Assembly (NCBI GenBank): GCA_016712345.1
Contig: JADJRH010000002.1
Coordinates: 328,466-392,465 of the forward strand
DNA from: Polyangiaceae bacterium
Lineage (GTDB): Bacteria; Myxococcota_A; Polyangia; Polyangiales; Polyangiaceae
Length of the DNA stretch: 64,000 nt
Reading direction: 5' to 3'
Shown: piece after piece, positions 57,001-64,000 of the stretch
Position numbering within the stretch: position 1 is the stretch's first letter
Layout: each line of letters opens with the position of its first letter
Made by a program: the position numbers

Positions 57001-60000
57001 GAATGAAGCGCGTGGGGGCGGCGGCGATTGTGGGTGTTGTGCTCATCGCGGGGTGCAAAACGAAAAAGCCGTTTGGAGGGATGTTGCCCCCGAGCGCGGT
57101 GGACGTGCGCGAGGTGAGCGTCGATATGTTTCCCGACTGGGAATATTACGTGCGCGCAACAATGCCCGGGCCGGACTGTGAGGCGTTGCTCGTGACGCTG
57201 GCCGGTAAAGAAGGGTTGGCGCCGCTGATGGAGCACCGCTTTGACGGTGGGAACGGTGAGTGGGGGCCTGGGCAGCCGCCGGTTTGGTGGGCGCCTGTAT
57301 ACGACGGCGGTCACTTTCACGGGAAGGCCGGCGACGTGAACACGTGCGCGATGTGTCGGGATGGCATTTTTTATTATTGGCAGGGCTCGCATTGACGAGG
57401 CGTTGCGGTGGGGCGTTTCGAATACCGGTGGGGTTTGTTGGGTAAGCGAACGCGCTGATGAAGCTTGGGCCCCGCCGCGGCCCGCGGAGCGAACGAAGTG
57501 AGCGAACGCGGGCCGCTTGGGGGGGCGGCGCGCGCCGCCGCCGCGAAGATTTGAGCGTTGATTGAGGACGGATGTGTACTCAGCGCCGAGGCGTTTTGAT
57601 GCGGCCGGCGGCGCGCGCCCGGGGGGGCAGCCGGTATGCCGGATTTGTTGACAGGGGCGAGGAGGTCAGACTGCGCGTGTACGCATTGTGTGATGTGTAC
57701 ACACGCTTCGGGGAGTGAAAAAGCTCACGGGCCGCACATCAGCATGCCGCCGCAGTTGGGGCTGGACGTGAGGTCGGAGCATTCATCGTCGGGATCTGTG
57801 CCTGGGACGATGTCGGCGCAGGTGCCGTTGGCAACGGTGGTCTTGGCGAGTACGCAGGCTTGGCAGAGGCCGTTGCACGCGGTGTTGCAGCAAACACCGT
57901 CGACGCAGTTGCCGCTGGCGCACTCGGCGTTGAGTGTACACACGGCTCCGTTGGCGAGCGTTGTGCACGCGCCGGCTCCGTTGCAGTTGGTGGCACCGGC
58001 GCATTCGCCGTCGGGGTCTGTGCCGGTGATGATGACGCCGCATGTGCCGTTGGCGCCGGAGCCTTTTTTGGCGGTTGTGCAGGCGTTGCATGTGGCTGTG
58101 CAGCTCGTGTTGCAGCAAACGCCGTCGACGCAGTTGCCGCTTGTGCACTCGGCGTTGAGTGTACACGTTGTGCCGTTGGCGAAGAGTGAACATGTGCCGG
58201 CGCCGCTGCATGAAGTGGAGCCGGGGCACTCGTTGTCGGGGTCGAGGTTTACGGGAATGGTGCCGCATGTGCCGTCGGCTCCGCTGTTTTTCTTGGCTGC
58301 GGTGCACGCGTTGCAAAGCGTGTTGCATGCGGTGTTGCAGCAAACGCCGTCGGCGCAGAAGCCGCTTGTGCACTCACCGTTGGCGGTACACGCGGCACCG
58401 TTGGCGAGGAGAGCGCAGGCGCTTGCACCGTTGCACGAGAATGCGCCCAGACACTCATTGTCGGGGTCGGTGTTGGCGCCGATGGCACCGCAGACGCCGT
58501 CGAGGCCGGAGCCTTTTTTGGCTGCGGTGCACGCGTTGCAAGTGCCTGTGCAAGTGGTGTTGCAGCACACGCCGTCGATGCAGTTGCCGCTCACGCAGTC
58601 GGTGCCGAGGGCGCACGCTTCACCGTTGGGGAGTTTGCAGAGGCTTGAACCGTTGCAAACTTGAGCGCCGGCGCATTCGCTGTCCGGGTCGAGGTTGGCT
58701 GCGACCGCGCCGCATGCTCCGTCGGCCCCGGAGCCTTTTTTAACGGCTGTGCAGGCGTTGCAAAGGGTGTTGCATGCGGTGTTGCAGCAAACGCCGTCGA
58801 CGCAGAAGGTGCTGGAGCACTCGGCGTTGTTGGTGCACGCGGAGCCGGCCGGGAGGAGGGCGCAGGCGCCTGCTCCGCTGCACGAGAGTGTTCCGAAACA
58901 CTCGTTGTCAGGGTCTGTGCCGACAACGATGTTGCCGCAGCTGCCGTCACCGGGGCTGCCTTTTTTGGCTGCGGTGCACGCTTGGCAGGCACCCGTGCAG
59001 GTGGTGTTGCAGCAAACGCCGTCGACGCAGCTGTTGCTCACGCAGTCTGTGCCGAGGAGGCAGGCTTCACCGTTGGGGAGTTTGCAGAGGCTTGAACCGT
59101 TGCAGACTTGAGCGCCGGCACACTCGGCATCGGGATCGAGGCCGGAGGCAACAACACCGCACGTTCCGTCGGCGCCGGAACCTTTTTTGACGGCGGTGCA
59201 CGCGTTGCAAAGGGTGTTGCAAACGCTGTTGCAGCAAACGCCGTCGACGCAGAAGCCGCTGGAGCATTCACCGTTGGCGGTGCATGTGGAGCCGTTGGCG
59301 AGCGATCCGCAGGCGCCGGAGCCGTTGCATGTGATGGCACCGAAACATTCGTTGTCGGGGTCGGTGCTGATGGCGATGTTGCCGCACGATCCGTCGGTGC
59401 CGGAGCCTTTTTTGGCGGCTGTGCACGCTTGACAGGAGCCTGTGCAAGCGGCGTTGCAACACACGCCGTCGGCGCAGAAGCCCGTGATGCAATCGGTGCC
59501 TGCGACGCACGCTTCACCGGTTGGGACTTTGCAAAGGCTCGCGCCGTTGCATGCGAGCGTTCCGGCGCATTCAGCATCGGGATCGAGGCCGGCGGAGACA
59601 ACGCCGCAGGTGCCGTCGGTGCCGGTGCCTTTTTTGACGGCGGTGCACGCGTTGCAAAGGGTGTTGCAAGCGGTGTTGCAGCAAACGCCGTCGACACAGA
59701 AGTTGCTGGAACATTCACCGTTGTTGGTACACGTGGCGCCGTTGGCGAGGAGGCCGCACGCGCCGGAGCCGTTGCATGTGATGGCGCCGAAACACTCGGC
59801 GTCGGGGTCGGTTCCGGTGTTGATGTTTCCGCAAACGCCGTCGGTGCCGTTGCCCTTTTTCATGGCGGTGCACGCTTGGCAGCTTCCGGTGCACGCCGCG
59901 GAGCAGCACACACCGTCGGCGCAGAAGCCGCTCACGCAGTCGGTTGCAAGTGTACACGCGTCGCCGTTGGGCGATCGGCATGTGGCGGATGCGGAGCAAA

Positions 60001-63000: not shown

Positions 63001-64000
63001 CGTCGCCGCAGGTGGGAACGAGGCAGATGTTTTGTTTGCAAACGAGGTGCAAACAGTCTTCGCCCACAACACACGCTTGGCCTGGAACGCACGTGGATCC
63101 GCACGCTCCGCCGCAATCTACGTCGGTTTCGTCGCCGTTTTTCACCATGTCGGCGCACGACGCCGGCACGCACTCGATTGCTTTCGTTGCAAACCTCGGT
63201 GTCGGCGCAGTCGCCGTTTTCAACGCAGGCAACACAGTCGCCTTCACCGTCACAGACCTTGCCGTTGTTTTGTGTACACGGCGAGCCGGGCGCAGCCGGC
63301 GTGTTGGTCACTTCACCTGTGGTGCACGCATCGACGGTGCACTCATTGCCGTCATCCGGGAGGTCGGTGTCGTCGGGTACCGCAACAATGTCTGTGCCTT
63401 CGCAGACGTTCTTTTTGCAGTCGCCCGGCGTTTGCTCAATTGTCCCGCATCCGCCGCCCGCACCGCCCCCTCCAGAACCGCCTCCGCCGGTAGTTGCGGT
63501 GGTTGTACTTGTTGTCGGTGTGCCGCCGTTGCCGGCATTGCCGCCTTGCCCTGTGCCGTCGCCGTCGCACGACGCCGCCGCGAGGGCCACAAAGCCACTC
63601 GCAACCACGCACAACAGGCCGCCACTAAAGCGTTTCCATGCGCCCATGATCTCGCTCCCGGCAGACCGAAGCGGTGGGGCGCAACCCTCTCACCCGCTTC
63701 ACTTTCGCCCGGCGTTTCGGCCTTTTCCGAAGCGCCAATCAACCACGCTAGCGGCGTGGGAGCGTGGGTGTCAATTGCGCGGCTCTCAAAAGAAACGCGT
63801 TTTTGTGCATACGTTTGCGCACCAATCGCGCTTGCGCGGCGATCGCCGATCGCGAGTTCGTCCGTGCTTTTGGCGCGCCGATCGCACTTCGATAAGAGGC
63901 GACCCGCTTTGGCGGCTCCACCGCCAATCGCTGAACATTGAGAGGGAGGGAATTGAATACTATGAGTGCGCAGCCCGCCGAAAAAACGCGGCGGACCCTA

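What the first reader, a model, noticed from the sequence alone, without database searches (positions are those of the whole stretch)
57725..63647. About 1970-aa lipoprotein built from about 24 near-identical cysteine-rich modules; antisense strand yields long spurious ORFs
Each about 70-aa module has about 10 Cys in the pattern DPDxEC-G-C-NGxGAC-L-NG-CT-EC-SGFCxDGVCCNTAC-LCNACTAAKKGSG-DGTCG. It is reminiscent of Dickkopf-N/colipase-like and myxococcal disulfide-rich repeats. The DNA is so repetitive and GC-biased that the opposite strand carries ORFs up to 1461 aa (59108..63493), which are artefacts. Such arrays are candidates for adhesins, matrix proteins or metal/lipid binding. The high nucleotide identity between modules implies ongoing concerted evolution.
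Basis: partly seen in the sequence, partly recalled or inferred. Interest (0 to 1): 0.55.

Follow-up and report, generated by a model that had tools for sequence, protein, structure and literature searches.

The report
Giant disulfide-rich repeat lipoprotein, frameshifted
A soil/sludge myxobacterium (Polyangiaceae) encodes a roughly 1,970-residue membrane-anchored protein made almost entirely of about 22 copies of a 75-residue, 12-cysteine module that belongs to a very large but uncatalogued family and most likely forms a long disulfide-stapled stalk on the cell envelope; in this assembly the gene is broken by a one-base frameshift.

Summary
The minus strand of 57725..63647 encodes a Cys-rich repeat protein. 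It has 20 complete 73-75-aa repeats, or 21-22 units in the other register, and each has 12 invariant Cys. The modules are not near-identical: mean identity is 61% aa and 69% nt, with a maximum of 85%/87%. A two-module (447-nt) super-repeat runs through the middle of the array.

The signal-peptide/lipobox ORF (62982..63647) and the array ORF (57725..63253) are in different frames. Deleting one base near 63176 gives a 1973-aa protein collinear with a 1974-aa ortholog. NCBI annotates only a truncated 1807-aa "hypothetical protein" (Polyangiaceae MAG).

The long plus-strand ORFs are compositional by-products. The synonymous fraction of changed codons is 0.48 in the sense frame and 0.10 in the frame of the 1461-aa ORF.

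Dickkopf_N, colipase, DUF4215, TIGR02232 and TIGR04201 do not match. TIGR02232 and DUF4215 match the convergent neighbour gene instead. The module has no Pfam, NCBIfam or PDB match, yet a profile finds 8,922 protein clusters, mostly in Myxococcota. In paralogs the array lies between an anchor and a globular head.

Best reading: a disulfide-stapled stalk or spacer lipoprotein. The function is inferred, not shown.

The parts
57725..63647 (-). Whole gene as it should read: a 1973-aa lipoprotein after removal of one base. The stop codon TGA is at 57727..57725.
   Evidence: The corrected translation is collinear with ortholog P0002 (1974 aa, 71% identity, 1969 aligned codons).
63170..63185 (-). Frameshift site. 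One extra base (about 63176, '...AGC AAT c GAG TGC GTG...') separates the signal-peptide frame from the array frame.
   Evidence: sequence; the orthologs read VCNAANECVAASC and VCTAANECQEGSC without a break; deleting the C gives VCNESNECVPASC and one ORF.
63567..63647 (-). Signal peptide with lipobox (MGAWKRFSGGLLCVVASGFVALAAAS|C27).
   Evidence: It fits a PROSITE PS51257-type pattern. Orthologs P0002, P0003, P0006, P0010 and P0011 also have the Cys at position 27. 76 of 110 complete homologs fit the pattern.
63450..63566 (-). Linker rich in Gly, Thr and Ser, about 39 aa, directly after the lipidated Cys.
   Evidence: Orthologs have an equivalent low-complexity stretch.
63177..63449 (-). Conserved N-terminal Cys-rich region (11 Cys) with a sub-threshold Dicty_CTDC-like stretch.
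   Evidence: PF00526, E 3.5e-4, 20.7 bits against a cut-off of 27; conserved in orthologs.
62777..63160 (-). Three units of a second repeat type, 'C.DG..NG.ETD(V/I)DCGG.C...'. The third runs into the first 9-Cys core.
   Evidence: The same unit forms long arrays in other bacteria, a Woesearchaeota MAG and Adineta rotifers.
62261..62776 (-). Two isolated 9-Cys module cores (62636..62776 and 62261..62419) flanking a 72-aa, 11-Cys spacer.
   Evidence: The module HMM finds 22 domains in P0001, 21 of them full length.
57797..62260 (-). Array of 20 complete 73-75-aa modules, each with 12 invariant Cys. Modules 8-18 alternate between two subtypes, giving a 447-nt super-repeat.
57728..57796 (-). C-terminal cap DPDDECSDLTSSPNCGGMLMCGP (3 Cys). 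It completes the last structural unit. There is no MYXO-CTERM and no globular head.
   Evidence: The cap is conserved in 9 orthologs that have arrays of 12-22 modules.
63745..63774 (-). Promoter-like element conserved in three orthologous loci: TTGACA (63774..63769), an 18-nt spacer, then TAGCGT (63750..63745).
   Evidence: alignment A3; TTGACA is invariant. The generic scan did not call it because the -10 hexamer is weak.
59108..63493 (+). Antisense 1461-aa ORF, not a gene. It is the codon-aligned mirror frame (Ala 26%, Gly 16%, Val 11%, Arg 10.5%).
   Evidence: synonymous fraction 0.10 against 0.48 for the sense frame; the same frame is also open in the orthologs (0-1 stops), so it follows from composition.

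Best explanation
The locus is one gene on the minus strand for a very large envelope lipoprotein of an uncultured Polyangiaceae bacterium.

Biogenesis, inferred from established lipoprotein and Dsb pathways: the protein leaves the cytoplasm unfolded through Sec. It is lipidated at Cys27. Its 304 remaining cysteines, an even number, are oxidised into up to 152 disulfides.

Architecture: a ~39-aa Gly/Thr-rich tether comes first, then a short Cys-rich N-terminal region. After that comes a chain of about 22 small, mostly beta-hairpin modules, each stapled by six disulfides. The 'DPDxEC...C...C' hairpin of each repeat appears to pack onto the preceding 9-Cys core, so neighbouring repeats share an interface.

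Proposed role (inferred, not shown): a long, protease- and shear-resistant stalk, spacer or fibril on the cell envelope, most likely on the outer membrane or cell surface. In paralogs the same array connects a lipid or MYXO-CTERM anchor to globular heads (RCC1, FG-GAP or Kelch propellers, ricin lectin). This protein is a 'headless' version that ends in a small conserved cap.

State in this assembly: the gene carries a 1-nt insertion. This is more likely a sequencing or assembly indel than a real pseudogene. NCBI's 1807-aa call, which lacks the signal peptide, results from it.
For: Coding strand and frame:
- The ORF is intact for 1842 codons.
- Substitutions against two orthologs fall 0.21/0.18/0.42 by sense codon position.
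- The synonymous fraction is 0.475-0.488 in the sense frame and at most 0.39 in every other frame.

Single gene:
- Orthologs P0002 (1974 aa) and P0003 (1828 aa) read straight through the junction and begin with lipoprotein signal peptides.
- The corrected window protein is 1973 aa.

Lipoprotein:
- There is a lipobox match at C27.
- The +2 residue is not Lys. Lys at +2 is the M. xanthus inner-membrane retention signal (PMC3222651).

Module is a folded unit:
- 12 Cys are invariant across 56 diverse two-module sequences.
- The AF2 two-module model has pLDDT 94.9 and pTM 0.79.
- The first 20 residues, which lack a preceding core, score 81-85. The same residues in the second module score 97-98.

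Stalk role:
- P0032, P0014 and P0037: lipobox, then array, then RCC1 or FG-GAP.
- P0046: FG-GAP_2, then array, then ricin.
- P0036: Kelch, then array, then MYXO-CTERM.
- Array length varies from 12 to 22 modules among orthologs that share both ends.
- The Cys-rich repeats of TraA were proposed to be a rigid stalk in Myxococcus (PMC3325183).

Surface context: the syntenic convergent neighbour is a MYXO-CTERM, TSP3-repeat surface protein.

Family size: 8,922 clusters at E<=1e-3 and 972 at E<=1e-30. Genome hits are almost all Polyangiaceae, Polyangia or other Myxococcota, including cultured Polyangium and Chondromyces.
Against: - No experiment bears on localisation, disulfides or function.
- Long-range rigidity is not established. 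A four-module AF2 model reached only pLDDT 73 and pTM 0.39, though it used a shallower MSA drawn from three orthologs.
- I could not obtain model coordinates. Disulfide connectivity and rise per module are therefore unknown.
- A headless stalk has no obvious ligand-binding part.
- The +2 Asp would mean inner-membrane retention under E. coli rules. The M. xanthus rule may not transfer to Polyangiaceae.
- The frameshift might be real, in which case this copy is a recent pseudogene.
Confidence: 0.6

Rival explanations
1. The array itself is the functional surface. It would be a multivalent adhesin or extracellular-matrix fibre that binds polysaccharide, prey or neighbouring cells, possibly stiffened by Ca2+ at the acidic DPDxEC and C-x-D-G motifs in the way cbEGF arrays are in fibrillin. 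It would not be a passive spacer.
For: - D1, P2, E5 and D40 are conserved in every module.
- The DPDxEC motif resembles the cbEGF DxD/NEC motif (my own knowledge of cbEGF).
- The conserved neighbour has Ca-binding-type TSP3 repeats and sub-threshold similarity to CglD and MtsD.
- Eukaryotic structural fibres are built from tandem disulfide-rich modules, for example CREMP, DUMPY and octovafibrin (PMC12723725).
Against: - There is no EGF_CA or any other Pfam hit.
- The motif spacing differs from cbEGF by one residue.
- There is no structural evidence for a metal site.
- In paralogs the array looks like a linker between other domains.
Confidence: 0.25
2. The copy in this genome is a real, recently inactivated pseudogene. 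The 1-nt insertion would be genuine, so no lipoprotein is made.
For: - The frameshift is in the deposited sequence.
- NCBI annotated only the downstream 1807-aa piece.
Against: - The 1816 codons downstream have no further stop or frameshift, and their synonymous fraction is normal against the orthologs.
- Another ORF pair in the window, 36057..37877 and 37667..39250, also looks frameshifted. That points to assembly indels.
- The contig is 738 kb, typical of a long-read assembly. This last point is inference only.
Confidence: 0.2
3. The plus-strand ORFs (59108..63493 and others) are the real genes, and the Cys-rich frame is the artefact.
For: - The ORFs are long: 1461 aa, 582 aa and 342 aa.
- One antisense frame has GC3 0.81.
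Against: - The 1461-aa frame has GC1 0.77 and GC3 0.53, and a synonymous fraction of 0.10.
- The high-GC3 antisense frame contains 6 stops and scores 0.39 against 0.48 for the sense frame.
- The sense product has thousands of homologs with invariant Cys.
- Antisense openness recurs in the orthologs as a result of codon usage.
Confidence: 0.01
4. It is a metal- or redox-buffering protein that uses reduced thiols, like a metallothionein.
For: - Cys content is 15.9%.
- NCBI names some distant paralogs 'MopE-related'.
Against: - It is an exported lipoprotein.
- The mature protein has an even number of Cys, 304.
- All 12 Cys per module are invariant, and AF2 gives a confident compact beta-hairpin fold, as expected for cystine-stabilised domains.
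- PF11617 (Cu-binding_MopE) gives no hit in this protein.
Confidence: 0.05

Closest known systems
TraA-type Cys-rich tandem repeats of Myxococcus xanthus (TIGR04201), proposed as a rigid stalk presenting a PA14 head (PMC3325183)
   Same: Both are myxobacterial envelope proteins. Both have tandem Cys-rich repeats lying between a membrane or surface anchor and, in paralogs of this protein, a globular head. Both have a presumed disulfide-stabilised stalk.
   Different: - The module here is about 75 aa with 12 invariant Cys. TIGR04201 has 3 invariant Cys and 2 marginally conserved ones (PMC3325183).
- There is no NCBIfam hit.
- The anchor is an N-terminal lipobox, not MYXO-CTERM.
- This protein has no PA14 or other head.
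TIGR02232 myxo_disulf_rpt / Pfam DUF4215 (PF13948), cysteine-rich acidic repeats of Myxococcota
   Same: Both are acidic, Cys-rich repeats in secreted myxobacterial proteins. The N-terminal 'CGDGVQNGTETDVDCGG' units look superficially similar.
   Different: The models do not match this protein at E<=1 to 10. They do match the adjacent gene 53269..56778.
Calcium-binding EGF arrays (fibrillin, Notch) and other eukaryotic disulfide-rich tandem-repeat fibres (CREMP, DUMPY, octovafibrin; PMC12723725)
   Same: They work in a comparable way: long chains of small cystine-stapled modules form extended extracellular rods or fibres. An acidic D-x-D-x-E-C motif starts each repeat.
   Different: - There is no sequence match: no EGF, EGF_CA or cEGF hit.
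- Each module has six disulfides instead of two or three.
- This one is a bacterial lipoprotein.
Dickkopf N-terminal domain / colipase fold
   Same: Both are small disulfide-rich domains. The local 'DC.SGFC..G.CC' stretch aligns with knottin- and colipase-like fragments.
   Different: Pfam gives no hit. Foldseek hits to colipase have E 4.9-8.2 over only 18-28 columns, which is not significant.

Membership tests
Dickkopf_N (PF04706) / colipase | Match to the family HMM | tested here: not met
   hmmscan against Pfam-A returned no family at E<=0.1 for the whole ORF and none at E<=10 for a two-module query.
Dickkopf_N (PF04706) / colipase | Colipase-type fold | tested here: not met
TIGR02232 myxo_disulf_rpt / DUF4215 (PF13948) | Match to the repeat HMM | tested here: not met
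   No hit in this protein. Positive control: both models hit the neighbour 53269..56778, TIGR02232 at E 1.1e-7 and DUF4215 at E 1.8e-6.
TraA-like stalk proteins (TIGR04201 repeats + PA14 head + MYXO-CTERM) | TIGR04201 repeat match | tested here: not met
   The NCBIfam scan returned nothing. I did not confirm separately that TIGR04201 is in release 20.0.
TraA-like stalk proteins (TIGR04201 repeats + PA14 head + MYXO-CTERM) | N-terminal PA14 head and C-terminal MYXO-CTERM tag | tested here: not met
   There is no PA14 hit and no TIGR03901 hit. The C-terminus is ...NCGGMLMCGP, with no hydrophobic or Arg-rich tail.
Bacterial lipoprotein (signal peptidase II substrates) | N-terminal signal peptide with a lipobox [LVI..][AS..][GAS]C within about 35 residues, after a positively charged n-region | tested here: met
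   K5, R6, a hydrophobic core and AAAS-C27 fit a PS51257-type pattern. Orthologs also carry the Cys at position 27. The lipobox joins the array only after the frameshift is corrected.
Bacterial lipoprotein (signal peptidase II substrates) | Actual diacylglyceryl modification and LspA cleavage | not testable with these tools
   This needs palmitate labelling, globomycin treatment or mass spectrometry.
Calcium-binding EGF (PF07645) | EGF six-Cys pattern with the D-x-D/N-E-C consensus, matched by the HMM | tested here: not met
   No Pfam hit. The motif here is D-P-D-x-E-C, one residue longer, and each module has 12 Cys.
Uncurated '12-Cys DPDxEC module' family (defined here) | A unit of about 75 aa with 12 invariant Cys, DP..EC at the start, C-x-D-G-x-C-C in the middle and (K)G-x-G-x-x-G-x-C at the end, in tandem arrays | tested here: met
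   All 20 modules fit. The columns are invariant across 56 sequences from many proteins. The profile finds 8,922 clusters.
Variable-length 'periscope'-type surface stalks built from near-identical DNA repeats | Very high nucleotide identity between neighbouring repeats, which allows rapid length change by recombination | tested here: not met
   Mean inter-module nt identity is 69% and the maximum is 87%. TRF gives 67-74% matches. Length does differ between species, from 12 to 22 modules.

The most novel reading that the evidence does not exclude
The 75-aa, six-disulfide 'DPDxEC' module is a previously undescribed extracellular protein fold. It has no Pfam, NCBIfam or PDB counterpart. Myxococcota would use it on a very large scale (thousands of protein clusters) as their own equivalent of eukaryotic EGF or cbEGF rods. 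On this reading it is a rigid, possibly Ca2+-stiffened building block for long surface stalks and matrix fibres that support their multicellular lifestyle. This gene would be a pure-array, 152-disulfide example.
Probability: 0.3. Interest if true: 0.6.

Novelty: new variant of a known kind. Interest (0 to 1): 0.42.

Why it matters
Myxobacteria are the best-known multicellular bacteria, and their surface and matrix proteins are largely unannotated. This locus is a clean, extreme example of a module that recurs in at least 8,900 protein clusters yet has no curated family and no structural relative.

Defining the module would improve annotation of many very large 'hypothetical proteins' in Polyangia. 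It would add a candidate new disulfide-rich fold for structural work. It would also allow a testable comparison with eukaryotic EGF-type extracellular rods.

On the practical side, the deposited annotation (1807 aa, no signal peptide) is wrong because of a one-base indel. The 1461-aa antisense ORF shows how high-GC repeat genes generate spurious ORFs.

Tried and rejected
- Pfam and NCBIfam scans of the whole ORF, the N-terminal ORF, a two-module piece and the N-terminal region returned nothing. The only exception was a sub-threshold Dicty_CTDC hit.
- A phmmer search of a two-module piece against all PDB sequences at E<=10 gave no hit.
- A four-module AF2 run, meant to test rod rigidity, gave pLDDT 73 and pTM 0.39, which is inconclusive.
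- The search for related loci with the alignment failed because it had no conserved 7-10-column stretch. It worked with a single sequence.
- Literature searches for 'TIGR02232' and 'MopE-related' found no papers. I found no paper describing this module.
- The generic promoter scan found no sigma-70-type site, and the terminator-like sites were at chance level.
- Programmed frameshifting was considered and rejected. The site has no slippery motif, and the orthologs read through in a single frame.
- The exact 221-aa N-terminal ORF product is not in the protein collection, so it was never annotated.
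Full report
**1. What is in the sequence**

The region holds a minus-strand ORF at 57725..63253. It is 1842 aa counted from the first GTG. Its translation is a tandem-repeat protein with 15.9% Cys, 15.2% Gly and 13.5% Ala.

A second minus-strand ORF at 62982..63647 (221 aa) starts MGAWKRFSGGLLCVVASGFVALAAASCDGDG... It turns into Arg-rich nonsense after ...EVCNESN. The finding's interval is 5923 nt long, which is not a multiple of three, so the two ORFs are in different frames.

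At the junction the DNA reads ...GAA AGC AAT C GAG TGC GTG CCG.... The orthologs P0002 (1974 aa) and P0003 (1828 aa) read ...VCNAANECVAASC... and ...VCTAANECQEGSC... without interruption. Deleting the C at about 63176 gives ...VCNESNECVPASC... and a single 1973-aa ORF.

That corrected ORF aligns with P0002 over 1969 codons, with 5 and 4 gap columns and 71% identity. NCBI's record, MBK8255273.1 (IPK82_21760, 'hypothetical protein', Polyangiaceae bacterium MAG, 738-kb contig), begins at an internal Met and is only 1807 aa. The upstream piece was never annotated.

**2. Repeat anatomy**

Splitting at DPD gives 20 complete repeats of 73-75 aa, each with exactly 12 Cys, spanning 57797..62260. Upstream lie two isolated 9-Cys cores separated by a 72-aa spacer. 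Downstream is a 3-Cys cap, DPDDECSDLTSSPNCGGMLMCGP.

The array starts with a core and ends with a DPDxEC hairpin. The structural unit is therefore probably 'core plus the following hairpin', which gives 21-22 units. A module HMM agrees, finding 22 domains of which 21 are full length.

The repeats are diverged, not near-identical:

| Measure | Value |
|---|---|
| Mean pairwise identity | 61% aa, 69% nt |
| Maximum pairwise identity (m12 against m14) | 85% aa, 87% nt |
| Minimum pairwise identity | 49% aa, 59% nt |
| Mean aa identity at lag 1 | 59% |
| Mean aa identity at lag 2 | 68% |
| TRF, period 225 | 67% matches |
| TRF, period 447 | 74% matches |

Identity is higher at lag 2 than at lag 1 because modules 8-18 alternate between two subtypes.

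Ten of the 20 modules are most similar to their positional counterpart in P0002. Central modules 9-12, 14, 15 and 18 are as close or closer to a paralog in the same array. P0003 has two fewer modules. So there has been some duplication or conversion of the two-module unit in the centre. The array as a whole predates the species split, and 'ongoing concerted evolution' is not supported. Collinearity with P0002 also argues against repeat collapse in the assembly.

**3. Coding strand**

GC by codon position is 0.52/0.66/0.78 for the minus ORF. The 1461-aa plus ORF shows the exact mirror, 0.77/0.66/0.53.

GC3 alone is not decisive. The antisense frame that shares the third codon position also has GC3 0.81.

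The decisive evidence comes from comparison with two orthologs:

- Substitutions fall 0.21/0.18/0.42 by sense codon position.
- The synonymous share of changed codons is 0.475-0.488 in the sense frame.
- It is 0.10 in the frame of the 1461-aa ORF.
- It is 0.39 in the third-position-sharing frame, which also carries 6 stops.
- The codon-aligned antisense frame is open in the orthologs too, with 0-1 stops. This follows from a composition poor in TTA, CTA and TCA codons.

**4. Lipoprotein**

The N-terminus fits a PS51257-type lipobox with the Cys at position 27. Orthologs P0002, P0003, P0006, P0010 and P0011 have it at the same position. 76 of 110 complete homologs fit the pattern.

A roughly 39-aa Gly/Thr/Ser tether follows. 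The mature protein has 304 Cys, an even number.

The +2 residue is Asp here and Gly or Ala in the orthologs. It is never Lys, which marks inner-membrane lipoproteins in M. xanthus, and +7 is not the Ala seen in ECM lipoproteins (PMC3222651). Outer-membrane targeting is therefore the default guess. Carrying that rule over to Polyangiaceae is inference.

**5. Family tests**

- Pfam-A and NCBIfam give no hit for the array, even for a two-module query at E<=10 and E<=1.
- As a positive control, TIGR02232, DUF4215, choice-of-anchor L, TSP3_bac and MYXO-CTERM all hit the convergent neighbour 53269..56778.
- No PDB sequence matches.

An AF2 model of modules 12-13, built with a 56-sequence alignment, is confident, with pLDDT 94.9 and pTM 0.79. 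It consists of short beta hairpins plus one short helix per module. The first 20 residues score 81-85, whereas the equivalent residues of the second module score 97-98. This is consistent with the hairpin packing on the preceding core.

**6. Distribution and architecture**

A word-indexed search gave 2,179 proteins at E<=1e-5 among the 8,000 candidates scored. A profile of the two-module alignment against 1.84 billion cluster representatives gave 8,922 hits at E<=1e-3, 3,900 at E<=1e-10 and 972 at E<=1e-30.

Genome hits are almost all Polyangiaceae, Polyangia or other Myxococcota, often with several loci per genome. They include cultured Polyangium fumosum DSM 14668, Polyangium spp. y55x31, 15x6 and 6x1, and Chondromyces apiculatus DSM 436.

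Where the array sits in paralogs:

| Protein | Order of parts |
|---|---|
| P0032 | lipobox, array 81-740, EGF, RCC1 propeller |
| P0014 | lipobox, array 50-1657, FG-GAP |
| P0037 | lipobox, array 63-659, FG-GAP |
| P0046 | FG-GAP_2, array 398-1079, ricin lectin |
| P0036 | Kelch propellers, array 833-2621, MYXO-CTERM |

True orthologs share both the N-terminal region and the C-terminal cap, but they carry 12, 13, 20 or 22 modules. This is the behaviour expected of a spacer or stalk element.

TraA's unrelated Cys-rich repeats (TIGR04201) were proposed to be a rigid stalk (PMC3325183). Eukaryotic fibres such as CREMP, DUMPY and octovafibrin show the same building principle (PMC12723725).

**7. 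Context**

In two other genomes the ortholog is again convergent with the choice-of-anchor-L/DUF4215/TSP3 gene. An ECF sigma factor lies 1-5 kb upstream in both. In the window that upstream region is cut off.

A TTGACA (63774..63769) and a TAGCGT (63750..63745), 18 nt apart, are conserved upstream of the start codon in all three loci.

**8. Interpretation and limits**

The best-supported reading is a disulfide-stapled stalk or spacer lipoprotein of the outer envelope. This one is 'headless' and ends in a conserved cap.

- Shown: the gene structure, the frameshift, the repeat anatomy, the coding strand, the lack of family membership, the family size and the domain contexts.
- Inferred: lipidation, oxidation of all the Cys, outer-membrane or surface location, extended shape and the stalk function.

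Long-range rigidity remains open. The four-module AF2 model was weak, with pLDDT 73 and pTM 0.39, and it used a shallower alignment.

The resemblance of DPDxEC to the cbEGF Ca2+ motif is a lead from memory, not a test.

Whether the frameshift is an assembly error or a real mutation cannot be decided here. An error is favoured because the downstream 1816 codons are intact and evolve normally, and because another ORF pair in the window also looks frameshifted.

**9. Verdict**

The feature is real and mostly correctly perceived, but several quantitative claims and all the proposed family links are wrong. It is a new variant of a known kind, the myxobacterial Cys-rich repeat surface protein, built from a large, uncurated and structurally unmatched module family. 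Interest is moderate.

Noticed in passing
window 53269..56778 (+): Convergent neighbour gene of 1169 aa, rich in Gly and Asp. It has a choice-of-anchor L domain, a TIGR02232/DUF4215 Cys-rich acidic repeat and bacterial TSP3 repeats, with sub-threshold similarity to the gliding and cohesion proteins CglD and MtsD. It also has a borderline MYXO-CTERM tag. It keeps the same convergent arrangement with the giant lipoprotein gene in two other genomes (L001, L002).
   Followed up: partly
window 56994..57395 (+): Small ORF of 133 aa with a lipoprotein signal (…VVLIAG-C), lying between the two convergent large genes. It has no Pfam or NCBIfam match. The overlapping 335-aa minus-strand ORF 56385..57392 also has no match.
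   Followed up: partly
window 56797..56840: Perfect 18-nt inverted repeat (AATGAGTACACATTGCTC, 8-nt loop, GAGCAATGTGTACTCATT) about 20 nt after the stop of the neighbour gene. It is a likely terminator hairpin without a T-run. Similar 'GTACACA' words recur at about 57560-57700.
   Followed up: no
window 62777..63160 (-); proteins P0013, P0025, P0048, P0063, P0090, P0098: The three N-terminal units 'C.DG..NG.ETD(V/I)DCGG.C…DC.SG.C' belong to a second uncurated Cys-rich repeat family. It forms long arrays in other bacteria, in a Woesearchaeota MAG and in bdelloid rotifers (Adineta), which is an odd cross-kingdom distribution.
   Followed up: partly
window 36057..37877 (+) and 37667..39250 (+): Two overlapping ORFs in different frames. 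One carries the TcdB toxin mid-N and mid-C domains and the other carries RHS repeats. Together they look like one Tc-toxin/Rhs gene split by a frameshift, which would point to indel errors in this assembly.
   Followed up: partly
window 1604..7120 (-): Rhs polymorphic toxin of 1386 aa (DUF6531, RHS repeats, Endonuclease_NS_2 C-terminal tip), followed by two SUKH/SMI1-KNR4 immunity-like ORFs (2304..3197 and 1604..2377).
   Followed up: no
window 43751..53143 (+/-): A run of genes related to lipid and phosphoester metabolism lies beside the surface-protein genes. It includes a Cys_rich_CPCC protein, a metallophosphoesterase, a GDSL lipase, a phosphoesterase-family protein and a WS/DGAT wax-ester synthase. 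WS/DGAT, Phosphoesterase and Metallophos genes also occur near the orthologs in L001 and L002.
   Followed up: no
L001 5059..5610 and L002 8301..8846: An ECF sigma factor gene lies upstream, in the same orientation as the ortholog, in both related loci. In L002 it is followed by two small ORFs, one of them LTXXQ-like. The equivalent region lies beyond the end of the window.
   Followed up: no
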